Source: an uncultured Calditrichaceae bacterium (GTDB lineage: Bacteria > Calditrichota > Calditrichia > RBG-13-44-9). Taken from it: a DNA stretch of 64,000 bases. Below are positions 36,383 to 62,238 of the stretch, one piece after another. The position numbers were made by a program, and so were the translations under genes. The stretch covers positions 32,361 to 96,360 of the forward strand of contig CAZUZS010000009.1 in assembly GCA_964624795.1 (NCBI GenBank). The letters are read 5' to 3'. The notes beneath the pieces are model-generated. The model saw only the letters and a program-made list of their open reading frames with translations, made no database searches and was not told where the DNA came from. Every line of letters starts with the position of its first letter. The first letter of the stretch is position 1.

Positions 36383-36476
36383 CGATCTTTAATTTGATAA
36401 TTGTTATTTGCCGGCAGAAAGTGCTGGGCGAATCGCAGAGCGCATAAATTCCCGGCTGCTTTGTTTTAGTTGGTTT

Positions 36477-37940: not shown

Positions 37941-37978
37941 CTATAAATCCTTATAAATTTACGTCCTTGTTTAACAAG

Positions 37979-38731
37979 TCAATCTGCGAATTGTTGCGCA
38001 AATTTTTTTCTGTTTTTTTGACTATTGAGGCCGATTTGGCTGAGGATGGACCGGACACCGAACCAACCGACTTTGGTGAAGCCGTATGCTTCGGTGTTAA
38101 GAAGCTTGTTGATTTTATATGCACCCAGGTGTGGGTTATCGGCAACAATGTGTTTTATCTTCTCTTCCAACGGACGCATGGAAAGCGGTAATTCTCTGCG
38201 ATGATCTCTTACCTCGGCTGATGCTGAAATTGGCTCGACCTTTCCGTCCGGCGCAGAAGCCGATCTTGGCTTTGGCGGCAGATAGGATTCTTCCTCTTCT
38301 TCAGCCGCGGGACTGGCGCTCTGCACCCCGGCAGACTCTCGTATTACGGTAGCGGCTGCTTCCGGCTTTCGTGCAACTTCCTCAAATTTCATTATTGCAT
38401 CTTCTGTGGCATCGTAAACATCCAGTATATGATGAAATTCAAGCAGTTCAAAAATCTCATACACATCGGGAATCATTCGAACCAGTTTAAGGTCGCCGTT
38501 GTGCTCACGGATGGATTTGATTTCGCTGATAAAAATTCCCCAGCCGGCCGAACTGATGTAATCAACGTTTCCAAGGTCGATGATAATGTTATAACGATTT
38601 TGTTTCAGGAGACTATTTAAGGCGCGTTCAACCTCGGAAGATGTGGTCGTATCAATAAAACCTCCAACCTTTATGATGGAGACCTGATTTTGACTTCCCG
38701 CTACCTCAGTCGATACTTGAATGCCTTCCAT
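37979..38731 (-). CDS. STAS-domain (anti-sigma-factor antagonist-like) protein with a C-terminal HTH-like extension
   Basis: The STAS region is VSIIKVGGFIDTTTSSEVERALNSLL...IIIDLGNVDYISSAGWGIFISE. The C-terminal ~90 aa, IKHIVADNPHLGAYKINKLLNTEAYGFTKVGWFGVRSILSQIGL, resembles the HPxxGPRKI...VSxSTVxRIL HTH of IS481-type transposases. Confidence 0.75.
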   Translation of the reverse strand: MEGIQVSTEVAGSQNQVSIIKVGGFIDTTTSSEVERALNSLLKQNRYNIIIDLGNVDYISSAGWGIFISEIKSIREHNGDLKLVRMIPDVYEIFELLEFHHILDVYDATEDAIMKFEEVARKPEAAATVIRESAGVQSASPAAEEEEESYLPPKPRSASAPDGKVEPISASAEVRDHRRELPLSMRPLEEKIKHIVADNPHLGAYKINKLLNTEAYGFTKVGWFGVRSILSQIGLNSQKNRKKFAQQFAD

Positions 38732-38808
38732 TCCATCTTCTCCGCTTTGATGATTGGATTTGAGACAATATTCATAATAATTCGTCTAATATACAGGTGC
38801 AGCTTATA

Positions 38809-41562
38809 CTAATCAACTTCTCTTTCTTTTTTCTCTGCCTGTTCTGCTACGCTTTCACTATTATCGTCAGCTTCATGATTTTCTGAAGTTGTATCTATAG
38901 GAGTTTGTTTTTCTATTTCCCCATCTTCCGGCGGCTTTTGCTCCCGCCCCGATTCCTGAGCAGGTTCTTCGGCCGGGATTTCAGGCATTGGTTCTGCCGC
39001 CTCCGGGTGTTCTTCGTCCGATCGCCGGCCCTTTACAGTTAGCATTTTTTCCCGCGATTTGATGTTGGCGGCCGGGGTCGCTACGGTGAAGACATTTGGA
39101 ATGCTTTCCTGCTCGTCTGACCGGAAACCGACCATCACTTCGCCATCCAGGGTAAGAAGCGGTGTGCCGGGCGGTTTGAGCCGGCGTTTGCCACCCCGCT
39201 GAATAAACATTTGGCGCTGTTTTTTAGTATTTAATTTAGCCCGTATTAACTCTTCGTATATAGCTCGCGGCGCCAATTCAATATTACCATATTTTTCAGT
39301 GTTTAGCGCCCCGCTGATGCGCTTGGGACCATATTCAGGATGTTCCCTGATAACATCATAAAGCTTTGTTTTTACTTCAATGCTCAAATGGCGAAGACCT
39401 ACGTTGGTATACTCATGGAGCAGTTCCCTAAGCGCAGTTATTCCGCCTTCGACATACATTTTCTTATATTTGTAATATGTTGTCGTCGATACCCCGATTT
39501 GCTGGCAGGCCTGTGCGACAGTTACATCGCTTTGCCCGGCAAGTTCGAACAATTCCTTGAACATGTCTATTTTGACATCAACCGCATCCATATTTTCCTT
39601 AAACGCAACCAGCGTCACATCATCACTCTGCTCATATCCGTTGGTAAAATTGAGAATATCCTCTTTTACATTTTTCACAAAATCGACAACATCCAGGTGC
39701 CCGTTGCGACGAATGGCAGCAAGGAACCGCTCCTCACCATAAAGCTCCCGGCTGGGATTCATTGCTTCGGTGATGCCATCGGTATAGCAGACCAGGATAT
39801 CATCGGGGTGCAGCCGGATGCGATCCGCCTTAATGGTTGTGTCAAATAGTCGAATATCGGGAAGCGTAATTCCAACCGGAAATCCCGGAGGATTCAGGTA
39901 ATAAGTTTCCTTAGTCTTGCCGCGGAAAAGAATCATGGGATTGTGGCCGGCGCTTGAGAAAGCAATCGTCCGCTCCCGGGAATCCAGGATAATATAGAAT
40001 GCCGTGACGAACATGCCTTTGCGAATATCGTCGGTAATGAATGAGTTTACCCGGGCTAACACTTCCGCCGGATTTCTATTGCCGCGCGCTTCCAGCCGCA
40101 GGGCAGTGCGGATCATAGTCATAACCATCGATCCCGGAACGCCTTTACCGGATACGTCCGCGACGCAGATTCCGGTGGTATGCTCGTCCACTTCCACGAA
40201 ATCGAAAAGATCTCCTCCCACTTCCTTGGCTGCCTGGTAGTAAGAAGTGATATCGTAACCAATGACATTCGGAAAGTCATCGGGAAGAAGCATCTGCTGG
40301 ATTTCCTGTGCAACCTGCAGCTCACGCTGCATGCGCTGCTGTTCCATCAGGTTCACCTGGGCTTCGCGGAATTTGCTGGTCATCTCGTTAAATGCTTGCG
40401 CAATCTCGCCCAGCTCATCGCTGCCGTCGATATCAAGTTCATCCTCATCAACCGTGCCGTGCCCAACCTGACGCACCCAGCCGGCCAACTTGTGGAATGG
40501 ATCCATGATAAGGGTGATCAACACAAATGAACCGCTGTATCCCACAACCAGGACAATTAGCAGCAGGAGCAACAGGTTGACCCGGCTATTGAATATTTTA
40601 TGCTCAACAAAATTCCGGTTTATCCAAATGTGGGCATACCCAAGCGGCGGCGTGTCCGCCCCCTGGATGCTGATGGGAGTCACAAAATCGAAAACCACGC
40701 TGTCGGCAGCCAGCGTACGCTGGTAGACCAGCGTTTGACCAATAGAATCGACAAATTGCTCGTTCTCCGTAATTAGCGGCTTACCGTCCAGAATCATGTC
40801 TTCTTTCATGGGATAAGTAGTGCGCGGGCGTTGTCCGGTATCGGTAATTACTACAAGGGAAATCATTTTGGGATTGCTCTCTTTTACGGACTTCGCATTC
40901 TCCGACAAAATGATAAAATCGTCTTTGCTCAACGGTTCCCATGAAATTTTGGACAGGCTCACGCTCTGCGAATACCCGCTCTCGAATATTTCACTGGTCG
41001 TATTTTCCCGGATACGGGAGTTGAAAATAATGAAGGAGACAATTGCCAGAATGGTCATAATCGCGGAAGTAACCAGCGTGAATTTGGTTCGCAGGGTGAG
41101 CGAATCCCAGACCATAAATGGTTTAGTGCGCTCCACCGTTTCCCGCATTTTGGTCAGGCGCAGCTCATTTCCCCGACTGGTTACATTATACTTAATGTCA
41201 TCCATTAGCTTGCGCATCATGAAAATGCCCAAGCCGCCTTTCTTGCCGATGGAGACATATTTATCGAGATCTGGATTCTTTACCTGCCGGGGATCAAAGC
41301 TTTTTCCATGATCGATGATGACGATCGTCAAACTCAGGCTGCGAACAATAGCGCGAATGATGATCTGTCCATTCCGAATATCGCGATATCCGTGTCGGAT
41401 GATATTGGTGCAGGATTCATCGACCACCAGTTTGAAGGAATTGATGACCTTGTGGGTGAAACGGTATTTTCTTCCGATGTGCTCGATGAAATCTCTCACC
41501 TGCCGCAGGTAGGACATCTGCGCCGGAATAATAATCTCTTCTTTTACAACATTTTTAAACAT
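38809..41562 (-). CDS. Multidomain partner-switching protein: N-terminal RsbW/SpoIIAB-like GHKL kinase, 2-TM periplasmic sensor, HAMP, PP2C (SpoIIE) phosphatase and a C-terminal transposase-type HTH
   Basis: The GHKL domain is LVVDESCTNIIRHGY...IVIIDHGKSFDP...KKGGLGIFMMRKL. The TM helices are FTLVTSAIMTILAIVSFIIF and LLLLLLIVLVVGYSGSFVLITLIM. The HAMP segment is LGEIAQAFNEMTSKFREAQ. The PP2C domain is VGGDLFDF...ICVADVSGKGVPGSMVM...SAGHNPMILF...LVCYTDGITEA. The C-terminal segment is IGVSTTTYYKYKKMYVEGGITALREL...VIREHPEYGPKRIS. Confidence 0.85.
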   Translation of the reverse strand: MFKNVVKEEIIIPAQMSYLRQVRDFIEHIGRKYRFTHKVINSFKLVVDESCTNIIRHGYRDIRNGQIIIRAIVRSLSLTIVIIDHGKSFDPRQVKNPDLDKYVSIGKKGGLGIFMMRKLMDDIKYNVTSRGNELRLTKMRETVERTKPFMVWDSLTLRTKFTLVTSAIMTILAIVSFIIFNSRIRENTTSEIFESGYSQSVSLSKISWEPLSKDDFIILSENAKSVKESNPKMISLVVITDTGQRPRTTYPMKEDMILDGKPLITENEQFVDSIGQTLVYQRTLAADSVVFDFVTPISIQGADTPPLGYAHIWINRNFVEHKIFNSRVNLLLLLLIVLVVGYSGSFVLITLIMDPFHKLAGWVRQVGHGTVDEDELDIDGSDELGEIAQAFNEMTSKFREAQVNLMEQQRMQRELQVAQEIQQMLLPDDFPNVIGYDITSYYQAAKEVGGDLFDFVEVDEHTTGICVADVSGKGVPGSMVMTMIRTALRLEARGNRNPAEVLARVNSFITDDIRKGMFVTAFYIILDSRERTIAFSSAGHNPMILFRGKTKETYYLNPPGFPVGITLPDIRLFDTTIKADRIRLHPDDILVCYTDGITEAMNPSRELYGEERFLAAIRRNGHLDVVDFVKNVKEDILNFTNGYEQSDDVTLVAFKENMDAVDVKIDMFKELFELAGQSDVTVAQACQQIGVSTTTYYKYKKMYVEGGITALRELLHEYTNVGLRHLSIEVKTKLYDVIREHPEYGPKRISGALNTEKYGNIELAPRAIYEELIRAKLNTKKQRQMFIQRGGKRRLKPPGTPLLTLDGEVMVGFRSDEQESIPNVFTVATPAANIKSREKMLTVKGRRSDEEHPEAAEPMPEIPAEEPAQESGREQKPPEDGEIEKQTPIDTTSENHEADDNSESVAEQAEKKEREVD

Positions 41563-41622
41563 TTTTTCGCTTTATTTATCAAACATTCCCATTAATATTT
41601 CAAAATCTTCCGGACACTTGTA

Positions 41623-43527
41623 CTACTGTTTCGTCCTTTTGATCCTATCTTCGGCACTTTTTATCGCATCCTGTAATTTCTTGCTGTAAGGATACTTTTT
41701 CTGCAGTTCTTTCCAGATCTCCAGCGCATCCGAGTACCTTCCGGCCAGGAACATATCGACACCCTTAATATACATCCTTGCCGATTCCTGATCCATTTCT
41801 TGTTCAACAACTCCCATTCCTCGCTTGGTTCGCTCAATATATTGTTTCAGTCGCTCATTGGACGGATCCATTTTTAATGCCTCGTCAAACAACTGAAGCG
41901 CCTTCTGGTAATCGCCCAGGTCGTAAAGCTGCAGTGCCTGCTGCACATACTGCTGTATTTTGATGCGATTGGCCAGGGTGCTGATCTCATCCTTCAATTT
42001 CGGATCTTCCGGCGCCAGAACCAACGCCTCACTTAAAATCTGCAGCGCGTCGGAATAGTTGCCCCCCTGGAACTCTTCCCGGCCCTTTGTTACCAGTTTA
42101 CGAACTTCTTCCTCCAGCCGACGGTCGGTCGAAGCAATCGCATCCTTTATTATCGGATCATCCGGCGATCGCTCCAATGCCAGGTTGAATTCGACAAGCG
42201 CATCAGTGAACTGGTTATTCTGGAGATAAACATTACCCTTATCGAAATGCAGTTTCACGAAAGTCCTGTTTTCTTCGGCCATCTCTTTATTAACTGCATT
42301 TTTGATTGCCGCCTGTTGGCGATTCTCAAAATCCTTCTGAATAAGGCGGTCGGTGCTGTCCAGCAAGGCATTTGCCGGCTTATTGAACGGGTCCACCGAA
42401 ACCACGCCCTGGAATTCAGCATAGGCGTCGAAATAGCGATTCTGATCCAGGTATTCCTTTCCCTTTTGGGTATGCTCGGTAATGAAATTTTGCTTTTCCT
42501 GTTCTTTGGTGCGATCCACGAGTTCCTTCTCGCGGCGCTTTCTCGCTTCTTCGGCGATCAGCAACATTTCTTCACGCGATTTGCCGATATCGAATGTAAT
42601 GGAAAAACGGTGGGTTGGCGGGAATGCGCCGTCGGCATTTATCGATCCGAACGAATAATCGATATGCATGAAAGAATAATTCAAACCCGCACCAAACGCC
42701 AGGTGGCTGTTGTCGAAACCAAGGCGGACGGTTCCCATCTCACGGAATGTGTACTCGGTGCCGGCTAATAAAGCAGCGCTTTCGTTTTTGCTCATGTGAT
42801 AATCAATCGCCACTCTAATCTGGCCGCTTTCTCCTATCTGCAAACCTTTGCTCAATCCTAATGTCATCAAGTATGGCTCGTTTTCAATCACGTTGCCAAG
42901 TTTCAGGTCCGGAGACACCAGGTTTCGGTAGCTCAGACCAAACGACAGGTTTTGCAGCAAATTATTTTCCCACTGTGGCCGGTACATCATCCCGATATCC
43001 AATCCCAGGCCGGTAGCATTGTTATTTATTTCAGTAAACTGCTGGCGCCTGATTTTGGTGGTAATGCCGCCAATCAGGTTGTATGGCAGCTTTTTGCTGT
43101 AAGAAAAATACAGCTCGCTCTCGTCGTACGACATTTGCCCCAGCCGCTCGTTCGTGGTAGTAACCACCGGAATATCACCGGTTCCCAGGCGAGTGTAACC
43201 AAGCCCTACCGTGCCGTAGGTGAGCGTCGGGTATACAATCCCTACAAAATCGTACATGGTTCCCTCAAACACCTGATCATGGAAAAGCGTGAAACTGAGA
43301 CGGGGAATCAACTCCAGCCCGGCAGGATTCCAGAAAACTGCCGTGGGGTCATTCGCTACCGCTACATAGGCACGTCCCAGACCCAGGGCACGCGCACCGA
43401 CACCATAACTTAGGGGCAATGTAGTGCCGTATTCGCCATCCGATTGGGCCGATAAAAGAGCGGGAAGTAATAGGACTCCATACAGACCAACCAGCCATTT
43501 TCCTGCAGATTTCATTATTTTGCGCAT
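41623..43527 (-). CDS. Outer-membrane beta-barrel (FadL/PorV-like N-terminal signature) fused to C-terminal TPR repeats
   Basis: The signal peptide is LVGLYGVLLLPALLSAQ. The signature GVGARALGLGRAYVAVANDPTAVFWNPAGL matches the FadL / PorV (LptO) family start. A ~300-aa barrel ends in an aromatic-rich strand. A ~300-aa helical TPR-like C-terminus contains repeated ...ALQLYDLGDYQKALQLFDEALKMDP. It starts 14 bp after the giant gene's stop. Confidence 0.6.
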   Translation of the reverse strand: MRKIMKSAGKWLVGLYGVLLLPALLSAQSDGEYGTTLPLSYGVGARALGLGRAYVAVANDPTAVFWNPAGLELIPRLSFTLFHDQVFEGTMYDFVGIVYPTLTYGTVGLGYTRLGTGDIPVVTTTNERLGQMSYDESELYFSYSKKLPYNLIGGITTKIRRQQFTEINNNATGLGLDIGMMYRPQWENNLLQNLSFGLSYRNLVSPDLKLGNVIENEPYLMTLGLSKGLQIGESGQIRVAIDYHMSKNESAALLAGTEYTFREMGTVRLGFDNSHLAFGAGLNYSFMHIDYSFGSINADGAFPPTHRFSITFDIGKSREEMLLIAEEARKRREKELVDRTKEQEKQNFITEHTQKGKEYLDQNRYFDAYAEFQGVVSVDPFNKPANALLDSTDRLIQKDFENRQQAAIKNAVNKEMAEENRTFVKLHFDKGNVYLQNNQFTDALVEFNLALERSPDDPIIKDAIASTDRRLEEEVRKLVTKGREEFQGGNYSDALQILSEALVLAPEDPKLKDEISTLANRIKIQQYVQQALQLYDLGDYQKALQLFDEALKMDPSNERLKQYIERTKRGMGVVEQEMDQESARMYIKGVDMFLAGRYSDALEIWKELQKKYPYSKKLQDAIKSAEDRIKRTKQ

Positions 43528-43541
43528 AATATTAACACTGT

Positions 43542-46500
43542 TTATTTGATATATGCTACTTTGGTTTTATAACTTTTTGATTGACCATCACTATACCGGA
43601 TGTTAAGAATTGCAATATAGACCCCATTCAACACCCGGTTGCCGGCATTATTCGTCCCGTTCCAGATCAACCCATTATTGTTGTGACCGTCATAAAGCTG
43701 ACCACCGGTGAAACTTTTCTGCTGCGAATAGACAAGCCCGCCCAGCAGAGTGTAAATCCGGATCTCGGCGGTGCCATTTTTCTCCATCCAAAAAACGAAA
43801 TTGGTGGAAGCCTCATCCATGCCGAAAGGATTTGGATGGTTGCCAAATATCTTGTCCTTGTCACCAGAAATAACCGTCAGCGCATAAGAACCGCCGACGT
43901 CCCCGCCGGAGCTAAAGAGATTGCCCTGCTCATCGACAATCTCGACCGGGTTGTCATGCGACCCGGTAAATGCGCGGATCGACCCAACATGCAGTTTAAA
44001 GCTCTGGTTCGGTGATTGGCGGCTAAGATTAAGCAGGACGACCAAACTGTCTTTAACGCCGGGTATAATATTCAGGTGATTCGTGAACTCAAGTGGAATT
44101 TCGTCGCCGTCCGCAGATGTGACATCATAGGCGGCGAAGACAGTTGGCGCAGAACCCACTTTTTGCAGATTTCTGAGATATGCCCGGTTCACGATCTTGA
44201 CGGAGTCTATCAGTGAGGAAGGGTTTAATACCGGCGATCCATCGAGCTGTTGCACCAGCAGGCTTAAGCTGTCAATGGTCACAGTAGGCACAAACTCCGA
44301 GACTTTCCGGTTATCGAACACCAGCCCGATAAGCGGCACGTCTTCGGTTCCCTGTTGCCGGATAACATTTTCCTGCTGGCTGAACTCCAATGGTATTACT
44401 ACCAGGCGATGAACTTCGGTAGCAATGGAAAGCGTTGCCGAGCTGCTGTCCGGATCAAGCGCCGCCGGTTGGGCAGTGTTAACATCATTCGGGACCTGGA
44501 CAAACTGCGCCCCGATTCCGGTGCTGATGATTTGCCGTGGCGTCCTCAAATCCCAGCTTACCGAATCCGGGTAAGTGAAAGATTTGACCTGCGTTTCGCC
44601 CGATGCCAGGGCGATAGAATCCTGCGGGTTGAGCTGCAGCCGCAACTGGCCCTGCCCGGAGAGTTGTGCATCTCCCTTATTCCTTATCTTTGCCACCACC
44701 GTGAACGACTGATCAAATGAAAGCCGGTGACCTCCGCCGGTATCGGGCCGGCCTTTGATCCGCAGCCGGAGGCTGAGCATAGCCTTTCGTTCCAGCACGA
44801 AATTGCCGGAGGAATCGGAAGCCAGGGCCTGGCCGCTGTTTGCATCCGTGGCGGCAACCGCAACTTGCAGCGGTATCGTGGTCGGACCGTCGATCGTCGC
44901 CGGTGCCTGTATCTGCCAGCTCACCGATGTTCCGGTAAAGGACTTGGTGGAATCCGGAACCTGCATTCCGGTAATTCGCAATACTGCTGATCGCCGCTCG
45001 CTCACCTGGCTGGAAGCCTCGATTTCGGTCTGCACCGTGAACAACTGGCCAGTGCTGATCCTGGGCTGTGTCTGAATCCCTGCTATTCTAAACAGGGCGC
45101 TTTCCTGAATGACTATGGGCGTCTGCACCTGTGTGACGGTGGTAGAGGCCGTTTGATTGGTCAGCGAATCTTTCGGAATCTGGTTGTAAGTAACAGCAAG
45201 CATCGATGCATTCACAATGTTAACAATCTCGTCATAGAGATCGTTAATTTGCTGTTTTATTCGGCCGGCCCCTGCCGCGAAAGCAGAACCTTCCACGGGC
45301 ATACCTTCCATTGGTGTTTGCATGTGCTGTTGTTTTGCCTGAAGGTTCCGCACCCTGGACATGAGCGCATTCACCTGGCTGTTGCTGTCAACCCGTACTG
45401 TCCAGGTTACCGGCTGATCAACAACGAACGGCTTTACCGGATCCTGGTTCACGAGCTGCAACGAACTGCCGGGCGTCAGCCGCAGTGAAGCAGCGCCGGT
45501 AACTCCCGCCTGGCCGGTATTGCGCACTGTCGCCTGGTAGGTAAATGTCTGACCGTAACTTACCGTATCGTCGCGTGCTCCGGCAGGTTCGGTGATTTCA
45601 GCGCTGAGCGCCAATGTCGCCCGCGTGATTGCCCGCAGCCTCACGAAAGCCGTGTCGCGCAGCGTGAGGTTGTTCACCGGCGAAGTCGACTCTGTGATCA
45701 CCCGAATCACCTTGTCTTGCTGTGTTGCAGTTCCGGGTGCCTTCAAATACCATGTGACCGAACTGTCGGACGGGATAAGCTGCTGTTGATTGCTGGTACT
45801 TGTAACCCCCGATGGCAGCGTAAGTGTTGCCAACCGGTTTTCGGTAAACAGCGGATTCAGATTTACCTTCACTTCCAGCGGTATGCTGTCCTGGTTAGTA
45901 GAAACGGTGATGCTGGTGTCATTCACATTACTGAAGAAATGGAACGACTGAATGGAGAAATTGCCCAGATCCAGCACCCGGATTCCGAAGGTGCGGGTGG
46001 AATCGGATTTAAATACCGGCACGGTGGCGTAATTATTCTCATCATAATACAGCGTGTCATTCAAAATCTTGGGTAATGAGATCGTAAAATCGTGTGAACC
46101 GCCGCTGTTCGAACTCTGCAAATTCCACCTCAGGGTGTCTCCAATTCTCATTGAATGAAGCGTATCGCCCTGCGAAAGCGAAAATGCGCTTGCATCATAG
46201 CGGAGGTGAACCGGTATCTTATTTCCAGGCGAAACGCCGGCTGTCCCTGTATTGGTGACAATCGCCGAAATTTCGAATGGCTGATTTAAAGCCAGGGTGT
46301 CGGGGTAATCCAACACATTAACGTGCAGGTTGGCGCGTTCCACGATGCGCATATCGGTGAAGCGCACCAGGCCGGTATCGACGAACGCCGGCTGGCCGGA
46401 ATTGATATCGATAGCTGCATTGATAATTTGCGCTAAGATAGTTTGCCGATCCGGGTAGGCTGTCGCGGATGTGTAAATTGAATTGACAACAGTGCGGTTC

Positions 46501-49500
46501 TCAAAGATCTGCACGGTGTCTTTGCGTTCCGTGGTGGTCTGATTGAAGCTGAATCCGTCGGGCAGCGTGATCTGGACCTCACTCGAGTCGGTGGTTGGCG
46601 CACTGCTGGCATCGCGATGAACGGTCATCTCCAGCTCGAATTTCTGGAGGGTACTTACGGTATGGTCGCCGGCCCCGGCCGGTTGGTTGATTTCGGCAGT
46701 GAGCCAAATTCGCGAACGCGGCTGCACGGTCACCATCTTCTGTTCGATATCTTCCAGCGTTGCCCCGGTATTCGATTCAATTCCTCTCGCGCGGACGGTA
46801 AGCGTGCTCTCCAGAAAATCAATTAGCGCATCCGTTTCATACCCGCCGCTACCGCCTTCCACGGGAGCCGACAAACGATTATTGGTACTCTTTCCGGCAG
46901 TTCTTATTCCTTTAGTCCCCGAACTGGCAATCTTCTGCAAATTTTCCAGAATTTGTTGGGACAAAGTGTCCGGTGCCCGGATTTGCCAACTGGCAGTTTC
47001 CGAACTGCCCGGTCCTAACGGCAGTACTGTTGAACCTTGAATGGAAAATTCGGCCGGCAAATTGATGATTTCTGCCGTGCGCCCGGTGGCATTGACGCTG
47101 CCGCTCAAATTTACAGTAGCCCGAAGAGTGAATAGCTGCCCCGTCGACACCGTGTCCGTATTGGCATTCAGAATCTCCAGGTTTGTGATGGAAATGCTGC
47201 CGGAAGTTGCGACGTTAACCTGAACATTTGCACGGCTGTTCACGCGGTGAACGAGGCTGTCCGGGTAGTTGTTCTCATCATAGGCGGCCGGTTCCACGTC
47301 TTGATCTATGGTCGCGTAGCATTGTGCATTCCCGGTCAAATCTTTGCTCACCAGACTCCATGAGAGCGGAGCCTGCTTGTTCACCAGCGACGCCCATTTC
47401 AGAGAATCCGCCGGGTTAACAAAAGCAAGCCTCGACGTATCGATACGCAGGGCGACCCGCACAGAGTCACCAGGCTCGATATTGGCAGTACCGGTGTTTT
47501 GCAGCAAACCGGTGACCGCAAACGTTTCGCTCTGCGAAACATTGATCTGGGTGCTGTCCAGCGACAGGACCAATGCAGCGCGGTTAACAGTTTTGAGCTG
47601 AATCGTTCCGATTGCGCCCGCAATAACCGCCGGAGCGTTGGTGTTTTCGTCGCTCGCCGCCGATTCCAGCGCTATCCTTATTCTCTCGGGCTGTACGTGC
47701 GCAACAGTATCGGTGAAGATCTCCAGGGAACGGTAATTCAACGAATCGGTTGCTACCTGCAACAGCGAATCTGCTTGAGTATGATCATATTTTCTGAAAT
47801 AATAGCCGCCGGGCAGGGATATTTTCACGGTATTCAAACCAGTGGTACCAGCTTCACCGCCATTTTGAATCCAGGTATGAATTACAAATTTTTGCCAGGT
47901 GCTGACCTCCAGATCGATCGCGCCTTCCGGTTCGGCAACCTCCCACTGCAGCGCCAGCGAAGCACGCGGCTGTACAGTTACAGGAAGTGTCTTTGGCTCC
48001 GACTGAATCCGATCCCCGCTGTGCTCATCGAAAGCAGAGGCTTCCACCGTAATGTTTTCTACCACACCACTCAACAGTTCATTAGGAATGTTCCCACCTT
48101 CCGGCGAGTTGCCGGGCGCGAGGAAATTACCACCGGATTTGCCACTCTTGCCGCTCAAAGCCGATCCCGCTACAGTATCCGGGACCTTAATCACCCACAC
48201 GGCAGAATCTTCAACCAGGTCCTGCTGAGCACTGCCGTTCAGCAAATCAAATCCTGGCGGCAGGGTAATCTGTGCCCGGCGACCAGTATCCGCAACCCCA
48301 AGTGTAAAGGCCACTTTGGCGCGAAGCGTAAATTGCTGGCCGCTCGAAAGCGTGGAGTCCATTGCCCCCTGCGGATGCGTAATGTCCAAGGCAATTGATT
48401 CTATACGTGCCGCAGATACGGTATGAACCGTAACCGAAGCTTGCTGGTTTACAAGTGAAGCGGTGGAGTCAATATTAATATCATTCGGAATTTGGACATA
48501 GTAAACGCTGATGATATCGCCACTCGGCCCCGATGGCGTGGTCGGCGCTAAAATGCTCCAGGTGACCGTATTCGCGGCCTGGGTAAAGAATTGGGTATCG
48601 GGATCAGCGGAATTATAGCCTGCCGACGGCGGCAGGACCAATCGCAATCTGCCACTATTGTCGATGGCAGCCTGCCCTATGTTTTCAACAGTCGCAGAGA
48701 GATCAAATGTTTGCCCTGCCGAAACCGTGTCTTTAGCTTCCACCGAAAGCTGCAGATTTGCAGGAGATTGAACCATAACTACGGCATTGTCATCCAGCGC
48801 CGGAGCAATTTGAACAGCGCCCCCTGTTAGCTGTGAAAATGCGCTGTCCAGTCGGGTGCGAAAGATAGCGGTACCGGATTGTGGTGGCGCAACTGCCGTA
48901 AAGATTATCGTAGTGTCACTTCGCTCCCCAAGGGTGAGGCGGTTAATACTCTGCTGCGGAATATCGTTCAGCAGGAGTTCCACCTTGATGTTTTTCAACG
49001 CTTCCTGCCCGGAATTCTGCAATTGCACACTTATCGGGAAACGTTGGCCATAGTTCACATTGGGAAAGTTGGGCAGCGAGTCGACAGGAACCGAGGTGGC
49101 GAAGATTCGGATTTGACCGGGCCTTAAAACCGTCACAGTTTTCAGAGTGTCCGATAATCGCGAAAATATTTTTTCCGGTGCCACAGAATCCTGGTAAGTC
49201 ACACGCGCCTTAAGGAAAATCCTGCCGGTATCCGCCTGTGCCGTGATCCCTAATGAAATTGGCAGATCCTTCGAATCCTGGCTGCGCAATTGCAGTTGAG
49301 ACAATGTATCCAATCCGGCGACCGACCACTGGCTGCTTACATTTTGTCCGAGTGAGTTGGTAAAGATCAGGTTTATGGAGTTCACTTCCCCGGTGGAAGG
49401 ACCGTCATTTCGGATTGTGATAGTAGCAGGTATGTTGGACTGACCCTGCGACATGAAATCCGGGATACCGGAAATGCTGCTGGCAAGAATCACGGTAGTA

Positions 49501-52500
49501 TCCCGCAGGGTAAATTCTCCGGAAGCAGTGGTATCGAAATTTGTAAATGGATCGCCGGTTTGCAGGGTACCTTCCAGGTGCAATTGCAAATTGTAACTGC
49601 CGGGTTGGAATCCTGCCGGAATCGGCACTTCTTGAAACGATATTGTAGTGTATTTTATGTCAGCTCCGCTCGAATCTTTGCCCGGAAGCACATAATTTGC
49701 CTGCAAATTCGTAGCGAGAATATCCGTTCCCCTGCTCAATGTCAAGACTGTGTTGGCGGCATTAAGCTGCACCGCGGACAAGGCATCGTTGCCAATTCTT
49801 GTTTGGAACATCCGGTTCTGGCCGGCAATTCCAATATTGGGAAGCAGGGAATCGTAAACCAGTTTGGCGCCGGAAATTACCCGGAAAGAGGCTGCCGAAT
49901 CTACTGTCTGATAACTTAGCACGGAAGGCGCAGATGTTTGCACACGACCCTGCACTTTATAGCCTCCAACCGGAACATCAAGCAAAGGGATATCGATCTT
50001 AAACTGTAATGTGACCTGATCTAATTCTTTCAAAACAGTTACTGTGTCCACGCGACGCAAACTGAAAGTAGAATCGTAGAGATCGTTGGTCGTTGTATTT
50101 CGTATGTGCAGCCCGGTCACAGCGGGATCAGGATTAAGTTCCAGCTTCTGCGCGGTGAAATTCCGGACCTGCATTTCAATTGTAATTGCAGTGTCGCCAA
50201 GCACGACCTGACGGTTACCGGACAGGGCCGGAAAATAGACATCCGGGATGGTAATCGCTGCACCCACATCCAGCGGCTGCCCGATCAGATCCCGTGAGTA
50301 GGCTTCTCCGTGCACCACTCCCCGCAGCGACAGCTGAGTGCTGTAGGTACCGTTCTGCAGGCTTAAGCTGACAGGCCTGAATTTCAGAGTGGTTGTATCA
50401 TGCGCATCGATGAATGCCGGACTTTGCAGGGTTGTAGATTGATCCGGGGACGATAGAACCGAAAATTTTGTTGAGTCAGGGATCAATACAATCCTGCTAC
50501 TTCCTGTGTTTCTCACCACCATTCGGAATGTGATATCACTTTGAACTTCCAGATTTGCAGGGTTGAGGCTGCCGGCCACAAAACCAATTTTCGGAGGCGT
50601 CAGAATCTGCACCTGTGCTGCCCCGCTGGCGCTGGAAGTATCCTGCAACGAAAAACCGCTGTTTTGGTCAGTCCCGGAGACAATGGCCCGGTAGGATGCC
50701 AGCGCATCGAAGCCGGGTGATGCCGGGTAATTCAGCGCATAATTGAATTGCATCGAACTGCCGCCGGCCAGGTCGGTCGGGAGCGGTGGCGATAACAGCA
50801 CGGTTTGAATGGGTTCCCCGGTTCCGCCAATCAATATTGAGCCATTATTTATCCTGGCCGTTGCTTCACCATCATTTCTGAGCACGATGCTCAATGAGTC
50901 ATTTTGTTTTCCCCAGTGAGTCGTGTCGCGGTTGGGAACGATGGAAAGGAAAGTAAACACTGCCGGTTCTTCTACGATTACCGTATCGCGAACCACACCG
51001 GCAACCTGCATTGTGCTGTCCACTTTTGGAGCGTGGTAATAGAGCAGCGTTTGCAGAATGTAGTTCCCGGATTCGGCGTTCGTCCTGGGACGGATTCTGA
51101 AATTGACATCCGCCTGATCGCCGGGTTGAATGGTGAGCGGTAGATTGGTTTGCCGCTGCAGATCGAAATTAGCAGTATCGTTCGGATTGCCGTTAATCAA
51201 TATTTTTACCGAATCCAAAACGGCAGCAGCCATCGGCGCGCCGCCGGCCGAATTCCTGATTTGAGTGGAAAGGGTTGCGAAATCCTGCCCTTTGCTCATT
51301 CTTTCCGGCGCCAGTTGAATGCCCTCAACCTGCAGATTGGGCTTCTGTTTTATCACCCAGGGCTGGACGGTCGTGGCGGAATCCACATTCAACGGTATCA
51401 CATTCCCGCCAAAGTTGACTATCCCGGCTAATCGGGCGTCCAGGCTGTCCGGGCCGGCCTGGGCGACGTCCCTGACATCAACCAGGAATTCAAAGAGTTT
51501 TGTTTCATTTGCATTCACCGTTACCGGTGGCACGAACTGGGCATAATAACGGTAGTTGGAATCGCCGGCGTGACGGGAAATCAATGAGAGTGTGTCAACC
51601 CGGAGGGGCTGTCCACCACCGTTCCGTACCCGAACGGTCACAGGTATATTTTTCTGCCCCTGCGTAACCTCCACCTCCGGCGACGTTACAGACAAAATCT
51701 CAGCACCGGCCTCCTGGTAGATGGACCAGCTATGCAAGCTGTCCGCCGAAACACTCTGGGAAAGCTGGTTCAGCGAATCATGGTATGCGGCAACAGCTCC
51801 AAAAAAATCGGCACCGGTTGCCGTATTGGCGTCGATATCAACACGGAAAACAAACGGTAGTTGCTCGCCGGCGCGAATCCGGGTTGGTATCTGAAGCGGT
51901 GTAATCACGTACGGCCCGATATGGTGGGTCAGGTCCGCAGCGTCGATCTCGGCAGTTGTTTCGCCGGTATTTTCGATTGAGACCTGCACCTCTATGTTAT
52001 TCTGGCCCGCGTAGACCGCGGTTGGTCCGTTGATATCCCGAATCGCCAGCTTCGCCTGGCGGTGTATAGTAACCGGCTGTAAAGTAAGAGCCTGCGAAGC
52101 GTGCGTACTGGCATTCTGATCCGTCCAATAGAATCTCACTGTAATATTATTAAGCGTCCCGGCATAAGTGGTGTCTATAAACGGCACAAGTGAATCACTG
52201 TGCGTTCCTCCGCCATTCAATAAATAGCCGTTCGCATTGGTGTACCCCAACGAGGCAATGGTAATGCTGTCAATGTGTGCCGGAGCGGAATTCCCCCCAT
52301 TTGACAGGGTATAATGAATAGGCAATGTCATATTCTGCGAAATAATACGGGGATAAGTCACCGCCGAGGTATCCAGCGAAACCGGTGAATCCACCCGCAA
52401 CGTGCCAGTGAAATTAAGGGTAGCGCTGTAGTAACCCCCATTTTCCTGATATTGGTCCATTCTCAGGGAAACCGGATAATTTCCTGGCGGGAGATTTATC

Positions 52501-55500
52501 AGCGACTGCGGAAAGACGACCGCCCTCTGCTGACCGCCGGGCACAGAGACAGTATCCGTTATGGAAATACCGAAACCGCCAATAAAAAGTGTGGTCACAT
52601 CGGGAAGAAGATAAATATTTGCCTGCCCCGCATTCCTGATTTGCGCGGTAAATGTGACGTTATTTCCTCTTGTAATCGCCACAGGCGAATAATTGACCGG
52701 CTGCAGCGAGCCTTTTGTAACAATCCGCCACGAATAGGATGTGTCGGCGTTTTGCACTTTCAGAACGTTTCCGCCTACCGTTGCACTGAGTCGGGCATTT
52801 ATTGTCGCCAGGCCGGTCTGGCTGGCAGGATTCACAGAAACGTTGTTAAAAGTCACCACCTGCGGGGATGAATTTGCGGGAAGCGAGAGCGCCGGCGTGA
52901 TTACCAGATTTGCAAAGGTGCCCTGTGAAAATTTCAGGGCTACCGTGTCTACCACCGCTGGCACCCCACCGTTATTTCTTAATTTTACCCGCACGGAAAT
53001 GCCGCTTTGTCCCAGGCTGACCGAATCGTAATCGCTGCTGACGGAAAGAATTCGCAATTGCGGACCGGGGATGACCTCAAAAGTGTCTAACGCGGAAACA
53101 CCAGCCGTTGCATTGCGCGATTGCTGCAAATCGATTTCAGTTCCGGAAGCCTGCGCGCCGACAGTTACTGTTCCCGTCTGGGCGGTACTAAGCAGAGAAA
53201 ACGTAAAACTGGCGGCCACGCTGTTTCCACCGGCAACCGTGTCGCCCAATGCGCTGTGCAAGGTTTGGGCAAATCCTAAGGAAGGATTGAAGCCCAGGAT
53301 GACATTGTCTATTGTAACCGGCATCTGTCCCGAATTCCGGATATAAACAGTGGCTGCCACATCCTGTTGGCCGATAAATACGGTGGGTTCGGCAACCACC
53401 ACACTGTCTATGAATAACGCTCCGGGCTGGCGAACGGTGAGCACGGCCGGTGTGGCGGACGAATCGGGACCAACTGGGCGCCCGTCATTGCGGTCGGTTC
53501 CCGAAAGCAGGAAGTTGATTGGATAGGAACCTATATTGGAAGCAGCATTGCCACGATATACAAAACTGGATGAATCGCCGCCATTGATTATCGCCGGTAG
53601 TCCCACCGGTGAAAGTCGTGTCAGGTTATTGACTCCGGTGCCTGACAGGCTGGATAAGGTGAGATTTAATCCCGCCTGGCCTGTATTTCTCGCTGTGAAA
53701 GCGAGCGTCAAACCAGTCTTGCCGGCGCTCACTGTGTCGGGCGTTACTGTCAGCTTATGAACATTTATAACTGCCGGCTCCTGAATAATGAGCGAATCCC
53801 TGACCACCGCCAAGCTGTCGGAATAACTCTGAGAAGAGTTCAGATCAATGTAACCGATCTTGGCATCCAGGTGTATTGTACCGGGAACGGTCGAATCTGG
53901 GATCTGGATATTAACTGTGTAATTCTTAGTGGAATTACCACCAATCACATCGGGTAAGGTAGAAACCAGTGACTGGCCCAGAGTATCCGGCGAAAACTTC
54001 AGTTGCAGCTTTTGCAGGCTGATGCTGGCCTGGCCACTATTCGTAATACTTACATTGGCGAGAATATTGCCCTGATGTCCCTGGTTCACATACAGCTCAT
54101 TCACACTCACCGAATTAATGCGCACCAGCGCCTGGTTGAACGACTGGATCAGGAGCGAACCCTTTTCTGTTAACGGGTAATCGTAGGATTTGCCGTTTAG
54201 TGAATCGCTGTAAGTCAGGCTTCCTTTTATGGGGTCTTCACCCAGGGCAGCAGAGGAATTAATTGTAATCGTATATTGAAGTGTTTCCGGAGCCGCCGGG
54301 GAAACGGTTCGGGGAAGCAAGGGCGTCGTATTAATCGTATGGTTGTTCAGAAATTGCAATGCAGCCGCCGAAATCGTCCCCGCAACCTCGCCGGTGTTGG
54401 TAACGACCATTGAAATCTGAACACCGGACTGGCCCTGGCTTACCACTTGCGGAGTCGCAAATATGGTGTCGATCTGCAAACTTGCCCGAGGCAACACCTG
54501 CAGCGCTGCGCCGCTATCCGGGTAAGCACGATTATAAACCGTGCCGGTGTTGCTGTCACTGTAATCCAGGGAGGCAAAAATACTGTCGGTTCCCGGCGGG
54601 TATGAGGACGGTATTGAAATAAAATAATCAAATTGTTGCGAACCGCCCCGCGCAATGGTAACCGGGAACGCCGGGGCACTGGAATTATCAATAAAGTAAT
54701 TAAATTGCTGCGGCCCTTGTAAAACAATATCGGAGAGATTTTGGACTTGCACCGGCGCATTCAGTGGGCCGGGATTGTACACCTCAAACAAAACCCGCAG
54801 ACTGTCCTGGTCCTGCGAGGCGGTGGAGGGAGTTATCGAAAGATGGCGAACGACAACATTGCCGGGTATATTATCGATATTGATGACTGCTGCATTCGTG
54901 TCTACTGTCGCCGTAAACGGAACGCCGTATTCTTCACCCGCCAAAACGACAAAAATTTGCCGGGTGGAAAGGCGAGCCGGGCTGATTACCGGACCCTTTT
55001 GGAAATTCAGAGTCTGGCTGTTTCCGGCAGTGATTGTCTGGCTGGTTTTCAAATAGAATGTGTCGGCATCAAATGTCAGGAATGTTGAGGCAGGAGTGAG
55101 CACGACATTTGTCTGGCCGGCATTGCTCAGTTGGATGGAAAGTTCCGCCGAATCGCCACTGGTAACGCGGGAAGGCAACGGTCCGCTTACATAATGTATC
55201 CTGGCGGCCTGAATAACCTGAAAAGTTGATGGAGAAATCGCACCGGAGGCAGAAATAATAGATCCGGAGCCAACCACTTCTCCCTGGAATTTTCCATCCA
55301 GAACGTATTCGCCTAATGCAAAATCGCCCGGCACCGTCCACCAATAATCGATTGTGTTCGTCCCGGGATTAACTAATGAGTCCGCTATGCTTGCTTTTGA
55401 AAACATGGCTGCAAGTGGCGGCTCACCGGCACGGCTCACCAGCGGCGTAGTCTGGGAATCGTCCACTCTTATAGGCACGCTACCTTGATTATTTATGGAC

Positions 55501-61721: not shown

Positions 61722-61743
61722 AATTGCTTCCTGTACTCTTTGA

Positions 61744-62238
61744 TTAACGGTTGGAAATAGAAGGTATGATGCCTGAAGCGAACACCTGGTCTGATACTTT
61801 ATTGCCATCGGAGCCGGCAACGATTTCTTTAAAATTTACCTGGTTTTTAACCAGTGGTGTTTTCAAGATATTTCCAACACACTTTATGTGCAATTCATCG
61901 CTGCTTTTTAAAAGATTTTCTTCAAAAAACAACATGATGCCTTCAGGCACCTTCTGCCAGGCAACAACCGAATCCCTGACAGGTTCCGAAAAGCTGTTTT
62001 GAAGCCAGACCTGTTTTTTATTTATTTCGAGAGAAACCGGTATGAGTACGATTTCCTTTGGCATCTCCACAAGTATACCATTTGCAGGGGCAATATTCAA
62101 ATTCAGCGTCAGATCGCATTCCCAATCGGAGGTCGTCTGCGGGATCGGATCTATCCGAACTCCAACCTCTGCCTGTTGGGCATAAATTCCCGTGATTAAA
62201 AACAAAATCATTATGAGACTTAATGATTTTAGATGCAT
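61744..62238 (-). CDS. Small secreted hypothetical protein immediately upstream of the giant adhesin gene
   Basis: The signal peptide is MHLKSLSLIMILFLITGIYAQQ. 164 aa. The stop lies 22 bp before the adhesin ATG. Confidence 0.5.
   Translation of the reverse strand: MHLKSLSLIMILFLITGIYAQQAEVGVRIDPIPQTTSDWECDLTLNLNIAPANGILVEMPKEIVLIPVSLEINKKQVWLQNSFSEPVRDSVVAWQKVPEGIMLFFEENLLKSSDELHIKCVGNILKTPLVKNQVNFKEIVAGSDGNKVSDQVFASGIIPSISNR

What the first reader, a model, noticed from the sequence alone, without database searches (positions are those of the whole stretch)
41623..43527. FadL/PorV-signature outer-membrane barrel fused to a ~300-aa TPR domain
The N-terminal signature GARALGLGRAYVAVANDPTAVFWNPAGL is the hallmark opening of the FadL/PorV(LptO) family. 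Here the barrel of about 300 aa is followed by a long, highly charged TPR/helical region with at least 4 repeats of the xALQxYDLGDYQKALxxFDEALKxDP type. A PorV-like barrel with a periplasmic TPR scaffold directly downstream of a T9SS cargo gene is an unusual architecture. It could tether cargo or PorU-like sortase components.
Basis: partly seen in the sequence, partly recalled or inferred. Interest (0 to 1): 0.65.

Follow-up and report, generated by a model that had tools for sequence, protein, structure and literature searches.

The report
PorV-like barrel with periplasmic TPR tail
This gene encodes an outer-membrane barrel of the PorV/PorQ secretion family fused to a long periplasmic helical-repeat tail; it is not a one-off but one member of a widespread, unstudied family that always sits between a giant surface-protein gene and a membrane signalling module.

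Summary
Window 41623-43527 (-) is one intact 634-aa ORF:
- a signal peptide;
- a PorV/PorQ-family 14-stranded barrel (NCBIfam 128.7 bits, cutoff 90; best solved-structure match is PorV of the F. johnsoniae T9SS translocon);
- a ~320-aa all-helical tail made of five ~50-aa TPR-like units.

It starts 14 bp after a 6092-aa Ig-repeat protein that ends in a T9SS-type C-terminal domain (CTD).

The architecture is not rare. Full-length relatives occur in Calditrichota (including Caldithrix abyssi), KSB1, Eisenbacteria, Krumholzibacteriia, Zixibacteria and MAGs labelled Ignavibacteria or Endomicrobiales. NCBI already names them "PorV/PorQ family protein".

The new finding is a conserved module: giant CTD protein -> barrel-TPR -> membrane RsbW-kinase/HAMP/PP2C protein -> STAS protein.
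- A CTD-bearing gene lies upstream in 39 of 43 tailed loci.
- The PP2C gene lies downstream in 38 of 40 tailed loci, against 0 of 33 untailed PorV-like loci.

Most likely it is a dedicated carrier/anchor for the neighbouring giant adhesin, analogous to SprF-SprB and PorQ-PorZ. Its periplasmic tail may reach the PP2C sensor; that step is inferred, not shown.

Verdict: new variant of a known kind, moderate interest.

The parts
41623..43527 (-). Whole gene: 634-aa PorV/PorQ-family barrel fused to a TPR-like tail (stop codon 41623-41625)
   Evidence: ORF; family hits; full-length orthologues; structure model
43447..43527 (-). Signal peptide, residues 1-27 (MRKIMKSAGKWLVGLYGVLLLPALLSA|QS); Sec type, no lipobox cysteine
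   Evidence: Read from the sequence; single helix 2-26 in the model; least conserved segment, 18% identity
43300..43425 (-). Conserved N-terminal segment, residues 35-76, carrying the GARALGLGRAYVAVANDPTAVFWNPAGL motif; probably a plug inside the barrel, as in FadL and PorV
   Evidence: Most conserved part of the protein, 69% mean identity over 52 orthologues; start of the PorV_fam match; short helices in the model
42586..43299 (-). 14-stranded outer-membrane beta-barrel, residues 77-314
   Evidence: Strand list; Foldseek best hits PorV 8gl6_F (E 1.2e-10, TM 0.66 normalised to PorV) and 6h3i_F (0.68), then FadL
42445..42576 (-). 44-residue highly charged helix, residues 318-361, leaving the barrel on the periplasmic side; its end is helix A of repeat unit 1
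   Evidence: secondary structure; sequence
41638..42489 (-). Five TPR-like units of ~50 aa, residues 347-630. Each has a TPR A and B helix plus a third helix; where units abut (2-3, 3-4), that third helix runs straight into helix A of the next unit
   Evidence: Profile-versus-self search; helix lengths alternate between 14 and 28-30 residues; TPR Pfam hits; tail 54% conserved against 48% for the barrel
43542..61820 (-). Giant secreted repeat protein (ORF of 6092 aa; probable start at M34, position 61721, followed by a signal peptide) with Big_1/CARDB-type Ig repeats; proposed cognate cargo
   Evidence: a large CTD-bearing ORF lies directly upstream in 39 of 43 tailed loci
43545..43883 (-). C-terminal sorting domain of the giant protein (last ~113 aa; motifs NHPNPF, IRIYTLLGGLV, WNGTNNAGNRVLNGVY, KVAYIK)
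   Evidence: beta-sandwich model with pLDDT 79.9; Foldseek hits include PorU 6za2 and FlgD Ig-like domains
38809..41562 (-). 917-aa membrane protein: RsbW-like kinase (12-138), TM1 ~159-185, periplasmic loop of ~135 aa, TM2 ~321-356, HAMP (348-397), PP2C/SpoIIE phosphatase (460-655), HTH-like C-terminus
   Evidence: directly downstream in 38 of 40 tailed loci and 0 of 33 untailed loci; 32 of 37 orthologues keep a 131-151-aa loop between two TM segments
37979..38731 (-). 250-aa STAS (anti-sigma-factor antagonist) protein, the presumed substrate of the kinase/phosphatase
   Evidence: TIGR00377 67.8 bits, cutoff 53.45; present in 29 of 35 tailed loci with enough flank
62348..63499 (-). 383-aa cytoplasmic TPR protein that recurs in the module across phyla (role unknown)
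   Evidence: TPR models; RomY N-terminal model below cutoff; homologues near the module in many loci

Best explanation
The gene encodes a specialised paralogue of the PorV/PorQ family of type-IX-secretion outer-membrane carrier proteins.

Shown here: it is a Sec-exported, 14-stranded FadL/PorV-fold barrel. Its C-terminus continues as a ~320-aa helical tail: a 44-residue charged helix followed by five TPR-like three-helix units. By barrel topology this tail lies in the periplasm. The gene belongs to a module conserved across several phyla: giant CTD-bearing Ig-repeat surface protein -> barrel-TPR -> inner-membrane RsbW-kinase/HAMP/PP2C sensor -> STAS protein.

Inferred: the barrel binds the C-terminal sorting domain of the giant protein encoded 14 bp upstream. 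It takes that protein from the secretion pore and then keeps it anchored on the cell surface. Known parallels are SprF with SprB, PorQ with PorZ and PorV with PorU.

More speculative: the periplasmic tail is the docking arm of this carrier. Its most likely partner is the ~135-aa periplasmic loop of the downstream kinase/phosphatase, so that the presence or load of the adhesin is reported to a cytoplasmic STAS phosphorylation switch.
For: Family and fold: NF033709 128.7 bits against a cutoff of 90; model pLDDT 87 with 14 strands; best solved-structure match is PorV in the T9SS translocon.

Cargo link: 14-bp gap to a 6092-aa gene on the same strand. Its CTD matches the CTD regions of the PorU, PorZ and M6 models. 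17 of 18 orthologous CTDs match TIGR04183. A CTD-bearing ORF is adjacent in 39 of 43 tailed loci, from Calditrichota, KSB1, Krumholzibacteriia, Zixibacteria and MAGs labelled Ignavibacteria; the one Eisenbacteria-type locus examined (L003) has a 3144-aa giant gene whose end overlaps the barrel gene's start, but the adjacency script did not count it.

Specialised paralogue: the same MAGs also hold untailed PorV/PorQ genes that score higher on the family model (L079 224 bits, L077 189 bits). Untailed PorV-like genes in KSB1 and Caldithrix are also preceded by their own CTD genes, so cognate cargo-barrel pairs are a general habit in these lineages.

Periplasmic tail: even strand number; paralogues carry OmpA_C at the same position; in L047 a separate YbgF/BamD/PorW-like TPR gene follows an untailed barrel. 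The tail is at least as conserved as the barrel, 54% against 48%.

Link to signalling: the PP2C gene is adjacent in 38 of 40 tailed loci and 0 of 33 untailed loci, and its two-TM, 131-151-aa loop topology is kept in 32 of 37 orthologues.

Precedent: PorP/SprF barrels are encoded beside their type-B cargo and anchor it, and PorP binds the periplasmic TPR/OmpA_C protein PorE (PMC9143113). Carrier-protein model of T9SS transport: PMC10994853.
Against: No binding or secretion data exist; everything about function rests on homology and gene order. The protein fails every curated equivalog model: PorV 46 bits (cutoff 250), PorQ 51 (220), PorV2 83 (325). The window's own CTD is just below the TIGR04183 cutoff, and the CTD fold match is to a common Ig-like fold. 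I could not show that these organisms have a SprA/Sov translocon, PorU or PorKLMN. The C. abyssi genome paper reports no Bacteroidetes-type gliding machinery (PMC5317091), and no PorU was seen in fetched loci. The synteny counts are not phylogenetically independent, because the tailed genes are probably one orthologous group. Synteny with the PP2C module could also reflect transcriptional control of the operon rather than physical contact with the tail. The relative arrangement of the domains in the model is uncertain (pTM 0.58).
Confidence: 0.5

Rival explanations
1. It is simply the general, housekeeping PorV of these organisms' type IX secretion systems. It would shuttle all type-A cargo, and the TPR tail would be a lineage-specific decoration.
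For: PorV is the best structural match and the family model passes its cutoff. The window holds at least one other clear type-A CTD protein, 5904..7349, which needs some carrier.
Against: The PorV equivalog score is far below cutoff (46 against 250). The same MAGs contain untailed PorV/PorQ paralogues that fit the family model better. The tailed gene is tied to one particular giant cargo gene in 39 of 43 loci, which is not expected of a general shuttle.
Confidence: 0.15
2. It is a cargo carrier, but the tail is a structural or assembly scaffold rather than a signalling link. It would be a fused equivalent of PorE or PorW/SprE that docks the barrel to the translocon's periplasmic parts, to peptidoglycan-associated proteins or to a chaperone, or that holds the 6000-aa cargo in the periplasm. 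The PP2C/STAS genes would only regulate expression of the operon.
For: In P. gingivalis, PorP binds the TPR/OmpA_C lipoprotein PorE. The TPR lipoprotein SprE and SkpA form the periplasmic part of the translocon next to PorV. Paralogues fuse OmpA_C at the same position, and L047 has a separate PorW/YbgF-like TPR gene after the barrel gene. The tail gives weak hits to BamD, YbgF and PilW-type TPR models.
Against: The tail gave no hit to the PorE or PorW models at E<=1. This reading does not explain why the PP2C module accompanies only the tailed form (38 of 40 against 0 of 33).
Confidence: 0.25
3. It is a FadL/TodX-type channel for hydrophobic compounds with no role in protein secretion, and its position next to the giant gene is incidental.
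For: FadL and TodX structures are significant Foldseek hits, and there is a weak Toluene_X hit on the N-terminal motif.
Against: Toluene_X scores 18.1 bits against a cutoff of 29.7, while the PorV family model passes. PorV aligns better than FadL (TM 0.66-0.68 against 0.41-0.53). Adjacency to CTD proteins is conserved across phyla. No lipid or aromatic catabolism genes are nearby.
Confidence: 0.03

Closest known systems
PorV (LptO) of the Bacteroidota type IX secretion system (F. johnsoniae PDB 6H3I/8GL6; P. gingivalis PG0027)
   Same: Same protein family by HMM (NF033709 passes its cutoff), same 14-stranded FadL-like barrel, same conserved N-terminal motif; best structural match. PorV binds type-A CTDs and also holds PorU by its uncleaved CTD.
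   Different: Fails the PorV equivalog model (46 bits against 250). Has a ~320-aa periplasmic TPR tail that PorV lacks. Encoded beside one giant cargo gene rather than acting, as far as gene order suggests, as a general shuttle. Found outside Bacteroidota.
PorP/SprF-like carriers with their cognate type-B cargo (sprB-sprF in F. johnsoniae; PorP-PG1035 in P. gingivalis)
   Same: A 14-stranded FadL-family barrel is encoded next to the very large adhesin it carries and anchors; SprB is a 669-kDa repeat protein (PMC9143113). Several cognate pairs per genome, as seen here for PorV-like genes.
   Different: Not a member of that family (TIGR03519 25.9 bits against 90.55). The cargo CTD here is closest to type A/FlgD-Ig-like (TIGR04183, PorU and PorZ CTDs), with only weak CHU_C (type-B-like) similarity.
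PorP-PorE complex (PorE: periplasmic TPR + WD40 + CRD + OmpA_C lipoprotein)
   Same: An outer-membrane carrier barrel joined to a periplasmic TPR-containing partner. Here the partner is covalently fused, and sister paralogues fuse OmpA_C instead.
   Different: No detectable sequence similarity between the tail and PorE (no hit at E<=1). No WD40, CRD or OmpA_C domain in this protein.
PorQ-PorZ and PorV-PorU pairs of the P. gingivalis attachment complex
   Same: PorV/PorQ-family barrels that stably hold a surface protein through its retained CTD. The giant protein's CTD scores best against the CTD regions of the PorU and PorZ models.
   Different: PorQ equivalog not met (51 bits against 220). 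The partner here is a 6000-aa adhesin-like protein, not a sortase or an LPS-delivery protein.
Partner-switching modules (RsbU/RsbW/RsbV; SiaA/SiaB/SiaC of Pseudomonas)
   Same: The downstream genes combine a HAMP-PP2C phosphatase, an RsbW-type kinase and a STAS protein; SiaA is the second-best NCBIfam hit of the 917-aa protein, after RsbW.
   Different: Here kinase and phosphatase are fused in one membrane protein, and the module is tied to an outer-membrane barrel-TPR gene. I found no published precedent for that pairing.

Membership tests
PorV/PorQ family (NCBIfam NF033709) | Whole-protein HMM score at or above the curated cutoff (90 bits) | tested here: met
   128.7 bits, E 3.6e-37, residues 39-314 covering profile positions 7-326 of 326
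PorV/PorQ family (NCBIfam NF033709) | 14-stranded FadL-like outer-membrane beta-barrel | tested here: met
   14 long strands in the pLDDT-87 model; Foldseek PorV 8gl6_F E 1.2e-10 and 6h3i_F, TM 0.66-0.68 normalised to PorV
PorV sensu stricto (NF033710 equivalog) | Equivalog HMM score of at least 250 bits | tested here: not met
   46.3 bits
PorV sensu stricto (NF033710 equivalog) | Docks on the lateral opening of SprA/Sov and binds type-A CTDs through extracellular loops | not testable with these tools
   Needs complex prediction or experiment; presence of SprA in these genomes could not be checked
PorQ (NF033711 equivalog) | Equivalog HMM score of at least 220 bits | tested here: not met
   51.2 bits
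PorV2 (NF052325 equivalog) | Equivalog HMM score of at least 325 bits | tested here: not met
   83.2 bits, N-terminal half only, residues 39-184
PorP/SprF family (TIGR03519) | HMM score of at least 90.55 bits | tested here: not met
   25.9 bits on residues 166-314
FadL/TodX (Pfam PF03349 Toluene_X) | Pfam gathering score of 29.7 bits | tested here: not met
   18.1 bits on residues 47-79 only; FadL structures align worse than PorV
Treponema UPF0164 (PF03687) | Pfam gathering score of 21.4 bits | tested here: not met
   14.3 bits on residues 37-99; some orthologues and untailed paralogues carry precomputed PF03687 hits
Tetratricopeptide repeats (PF07719 TPR_2 and relatives) | Pfam gathering scores; helix-turn-helix repeat structure | tested here: met
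   TPR_2 74.4 bits (cutoff 27), TPR_14 57.7, TPR_1 55.2, TPR_11 52.3; five helical units
PorE family (NF052230) and PorW/SprE (NF052312) | HMM match of the tail | tested here: not met
   No hit at E<=1 for this protein
T9SS type-A sorting domain (TIGR04183), applied to the upstream giant protein | Domain score of at least 23 bits at the extreme C-terminus | tested here: inconclusive
   Window copy 19.2-19.4 bits. 17 of 18 orthologous CTDs match at E<=0.01, best 1.8e-8, and all 18 match the CTD part of the PorU model. Beta-sandwich model resembles the PorU and FlgD Ig-like folds
Type IX secretion system as a whole | Presence of SprA/Sov, PorU and PorK/L/M/N in the same genome | not tested
   No tool gave whole-genome access. 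None found in the window or in flanks of related loci. PMC5317091 reports no Bacteroidetes-type gliding machinery in C. abyssi

The most novel reading that the evidence does not exclude
The barrel-TPR protein and the downstream RsbW-HAMP-PP2C and STAS genes form a trans-envelope signalling pathway. The outer-membrane carrier of a giant adhesin uses its periplasm-spanning TPR rod to touch the periplasmic loop of an inner-membrane kinase/phosphatase, so that secretion, loss or mechanical loading of the adhesin flips a cytoplasmic STAS phosphorylation switch. That would be surface sensing through a type-IX-style carrier, conserved across several little-studied phyla.
Probability: 0.2. Interest if true: 0.8.

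Novelty: new variant of a known kind. Interest (0 to 1): 0.5.

Why it matters
Type IX secretion has been worked out almost entirely in Bacteroidota. There, carrier barrels (PorV, PorP/SprF) and their periplasmic partners (PorE, SprE) are separate proteins.

This family shows that in Calditrichota, KSB1, Eisenbacteria, Krumholzibacteriia, Zixibacteria and related lineages a PorV-type carrier is fused to its periplasmic arm and dedicated to one giant surface protein. It also travels with a partner-switching kinase/phosphatase.

If the inferred links hold, this gives:
- a simple natural "Rosetta-stone" fusion for studying how carriers connect to periplasmic machinery;
- a candidate route by which cells sense the state of a surface adhesin;
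- a handle on how CTD-dependent sorting works outside Bacteroidota.

Caldithrix abyssi is cultured and carries the whole module, so the ideas can be tested.

Tried and rejected
- Frameshift or two ORFs: rejected. It is one ORF, and ~120 orthologues have the same length.
A six-sequence alignment worked.
- Cluster-member look-up for taxonomy of distant representatives: no organism names returned.
- Single-linkage clustering of representatives at 36% identity merged everything and was uninformative.
- Promoter and terminator scan of 37000-44000: counts no higher than in shuffled sequence and nothing in the intergenic gaps, so it says nothing for or against an operon.
- Literature searches for PorV-TPR fusions, or for T9SS in Calditrichota, KSB1, Zixibacteria or Eisenbacteria: no relevant paper; one search had invalid syntax.
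- Search for PorU or other core T9SS genes beside untailed PorV-like paralogues: found TonB-dependent receptors, CTD proteins, SecA and a PorW/YbgF-like TPR protein, but no PorU.
- Homologue search with the giant protein's last 200 aa: only 5 hits, so the CTD model rests on a shallow alignment.
- A linker-joined or multimer prediction of tail plus PP2C loop was considered and dropped. Chimeric sequences are not accepted, and the tool returns no interface measures.
- The 164-aa secreted ORF at 61744..62238 was considered as a module member. No homologue was seen in related loci, though the upstream flanks are mostly taken up by the giant gene.
Full report
**What is at the coordinates.** Window 41623..43527 on the minus strand is one uninterrupted ORF of 634 aa with an ATG start. 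It begins with a typical Sec signal peptide (MRKIMKSAGKWLVGLYGVLLLPALLSA|QS, no lipobox cysteine). NCBIfam's PorV/PorQ family model NF033709 matches residues 39-314 end to end at 128.7 bits (cutoff 90). The equivalog models are all far below cutoff: PorV 46 bits (cutoff 250), PorQ 51 (220), "PorV2" 83 (325). So is PorP/SprF at 26 bits against 90.55. Pfam gives above-cutoff TPR hits on residues ~417-620. By sequence alone, the Protein Data Bank yields designed and natural TPR proteins plus a marginal PorV hit.

**Structure.** I predicted the structure with AlphaFold2 from 53 orthologues (alignment A1). The model has mean pLDDT 87.1 and pTM 0.58.
- A short, partly helical N-terminal segment, residues 35-76.
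- Fourteen long beta-strands, residues 77-314, with a small hairpin in one loop.
- Thirteen helices, residues 318-633.

Foldseek against solved structures ranks PorV from the F. johnsoniae type IX translocon first (8gl6_F, E 1.2e-10; 6h3i_F; TM 0.66-0.68 normalised to PorV). FadL and TodX follow at lower TM.

The tail starts with a 44-residue, very charged helix (318-361). It then alternates 14-residue and 28-30-residue helices. Profiles built from each putative unit find the other units in register, which defines five ~50-aa units: 347-398, 422-472, 473-521, 522-572 and 580-630. Each unit is a TPR A/B hairpin plus a third helix; between units 2-3 and 3-4 that third helix merges with helix A of the next unit.

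**The tail is periplasmic.** A barrel with an even number of strands has both ends on the same, periplasmic side (established outer-membrane-protein topology). Independently, PorV/PorQ-family paralogues in related genomes carry a peptidoglycan-binding OmpA_C domain at exactly this C-terminal position (L059, L061). In L047 an untailed 423-aa PorV-like gene is followed by a separate 1010-aa YbgF/BamD/PorW-like TPR gene.

**The neighbour upstream.**
- The 6092-aa ORF 43542..61820 lies on the same strand and ends 14 bp before this gene. Its likely start is M34, followed by a signal peptide.
- It carries Big_1 and weak CARDB/MG4 Ig-like repeats.
- Its last ~100 aa match the CTD portions of the PorU, PorZ and T9SS-dependent M6 models. 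They score 19.4 bits on TIGR04183, just under the cutoff of 23.
- Of 18 orthologous CTDs aligned (A6), all 18 match the PorU CTD region, 17 match TIGR04183 (best E 1.8e-8) and 17 match the PorZ CTD. In Pfam, 16 match FlgD_ig, 14 match CHU_C weakly and 4 match Por_Secre_tail.
- A model of the window's CTD (pLDDT 79.9, shallow alignment) is a beta-sandwich. Its top Foldseek hits include PorU (6za2, TM 0.61) and FlgD Ig-like domains. That is consistent but not decisive, because the fold is common.
- The window also holds a second protein with a clear type-A CTD, 5904..7349 (30.7 bits).

**How common the architecture is.**
- A protein search found 197 relatives. About 120 are full-length (617-661 aa) at 39-72% identity, from Calditrichia/Calditrichota including Caldithrix abyssi. 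Sources name them "PorV/PorQ family protein" or "TPR repeat protein".
- An exhaustive search with the barrel alone against 1.84 billion cluster representatives gave 9,680 hits at E<=1e-3 and 107 at E<=1e-30. Most of the best 150 are 590-690 aa. 116 of them have a tail detectably similar to this one. They align end to end at 25-35% identity.
- A profile of distant members retrieved Candidatus Eisenbacteria proteins.
- A scan of one genome per GTDB species found 529 relatives. Full-length matches came from Calditrichota, KSB1, Krumholzibacteriia, Zixibacteria and MAGs labelled Ignavibacteria, Endomicrobiales, Deferribacteres or Cytophagia. These are submitters' labels, and some are probably wrong.
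- Barrel-only relatives occur in many more phyla, mostly allied to the FCB group.

So the fusion is a large family and not a singular event. I found no paper describing it.

**The conserved module.** C. abyssi has the same gene order as the window: a 4710-aa Big_1 giant, the barrel-TPR gene, HATPase_c_2-HAMP-SpoIIE, STAS, DUF456, DUF4159, a DUF4175-like protein and a patatin-POTRA protein. Distant relatives keep the core: giant ORF, barrel-TPR, HAMP-SpoIIE with or without an RsbW-type kinase, and STAS.

I then searched all 84 fetched loci with the window's neighbours as queries.

| Feature next to the PorV-like gene | TPR-tailed loci | Untailed loci |
|---|---|---|
| Large CTD-bearing ORF directly upstream | 39 of 43 | 9 of 34 |
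| RsbW/HAMP/PP2C gene directly downstream | 38 of 40 | 0 of 33 |
| STAS gene downstream | 29 of 35 | not counted |

Further points:
- Several MAGs hold both a tailed gene and untailed paralogues that fit the family model better (L024 with L079; L021 with L077).
- The window's 917-aa downstream protein has a cytoplasmic RsbW-like kinase, two TM segments flanking a ~135-aa periplasmic loop, then HAMP, PP2C and an HTH-like end.
- 32 of 37 orthologues keep a loop of 131-151 aa between two TM segments.
- Across 52 Calditrichota orthologues the tail is at least as conserved as the barrel (54% against 48%). The N-terminal motif is the most conserved part at 69%.

**Interpretation.** In Bacteroidota, PorV carries type-A cargo away from the SprA pore, and alternative carriers do the same for type-B cargo and then anchor it (PMC10994853). 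PorP/SprF-like barrels are 14-stranded FadL-family proteins. They are encoded beside their cognate cargo (sprB-sprF; SprB is a 669-kDa repeat adhesin). PorP also binds the periplasmic TPR/OmpA_C lipoprotein PorE (PMC9143113). PorQ and PorV also hold PorZ and PorU.

The simplest reading of the present data is that this protein is a dedicated PorV-family carrier and anchor for the giant CTD protein next door, with its periplasmic partner domain fused on. The strict and specific association of the tail with a membrane kinase/phosphatase that has a constant-size periplasmic loop suggests the tail contacts that loop and reports adhesin status to a STAS switch. That last step is inference from gene order only.

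Rival readings are a general housekeeping PorV, a purely structural PorE/PorW-like scaffold, and a FadL-type channel. They are weighed in the report sections. The scaffold reading is the serious competitor for the tail's role.

**Limits.**
- I could not test whether these genomes encode SprA, PorU or PorKLMN. The C. abyssi genome paper reports no Bacteroidetes-type gliding machinery (PMC5317091), and none of these genes appeared in the window or in flanks.
- The synteny counts come from related genes and are not independent events.
- The promoter and terminator scan was uninformative.
- The domain arrangement in the model is uncertain, and no coordinates were available to measure the tail.

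**Verdict.** This is a new variant of a known kind, namely a PorV/PorQ-family carrier with a fused TPR arm inside a conserved giant-adhesin/partner-switching module. Interest is moderate, and it would be high if the trans-envelope signalling idea proves true.

Noticed in passing
window 5904-7349 (-): 481-aa protein with a clear T9SS type-A sorting domain at its C-terminus (TIGR04183 30.7 bits, cutoff 23). It shows the organism uses CTD-dependent sorting for other proteins too.
   Followed up: partly
window 262-20840: Envelope-biogenesis cluster: MsbA, LptB, two LptC/LptA-like genes, KdsD, KdsC, KdsA, CTP synthase, KdsB and a BamA/TamA-like Omp85.
   Followed up: no
window 30064-37940 (-): DUF456, DUF4159, a 1142-aa DUF4175-like coiled-coil/Q-rich membrane protein and a patatin-POTRA-Omp85 fusion follow the STAS gene. 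Among the fetched loci this extension is seen only in Calditrichota-type ones.
   Followed up: partly
window 38812-39585 (-) and 37982-38389 (-): The C-terminal regions of the 917-aa kinase/phosphatase and of the STAS protein share a 57-aa HTH-like segment (30% identity, E 1e-7). Pfam calls HTH_29/HTH_23, just below their cutoffs, a little upstream of that segment in the larger protein. This may be the output end of the switch.
   Followed up: partly
window 59191-59490 and 59797-60096: Internal direct repeat inside the giant ORF, 606 nt apart. The protein shows a ~100-aa block repeated almost exactly. The giant ORF also has higher GC (0.50-0.55) than most of the rest of the window, which is mainly 0.41-0.50.
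   Followed up: partly
window 62348-63499 (-): 383-aa cytoplasmic TPR protein with a sub-cutoff RomY N-terminal match. Homologues recur near the module: upstream of the giant gene in KSB1-type loci (as in this window), downstream of STAS in the group labelled Ignavibacteria.
   Followed up: partly
L059:9884-11539 and L061:9971-11410: PorV/PorQ-family barrels fused to a C-terminal OmpA_C peptidoglycan-binding domain. This is a second kind of periplasmic add-on in the same family.
   Followed up: partly
L047:1897-12659: In a Caldithrix MAG: a 2133-aa CTD protein, then a 423-aa untailed PorV-like barrel, then a separate 1010-aa YbgF/BamD/PorW-like TPR protein. This is an unfused counterpart of the barrel-plus-TPR arrangement.
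   Followed up: partly
proteins P0165 (1442 aa) and P0218 (1361 aa): PorV-like barrels followed by C-terminal regions more than twice as long as here. In P0165 the region matches this tail over most of its length (an expanded TPR array); P0218's showed no similarity to it.
   Followed up: no
window 61744-62238 (-): 164-aa ORF with a signal peptide between the TPR gene and the giant gene. No family hit and no homologue seen in related loci.
   Followed up: partly
window 25556-29323 (-): SbcC/Rad50-like and SbcD/Mre11-like gene pair.
   Followed up: no
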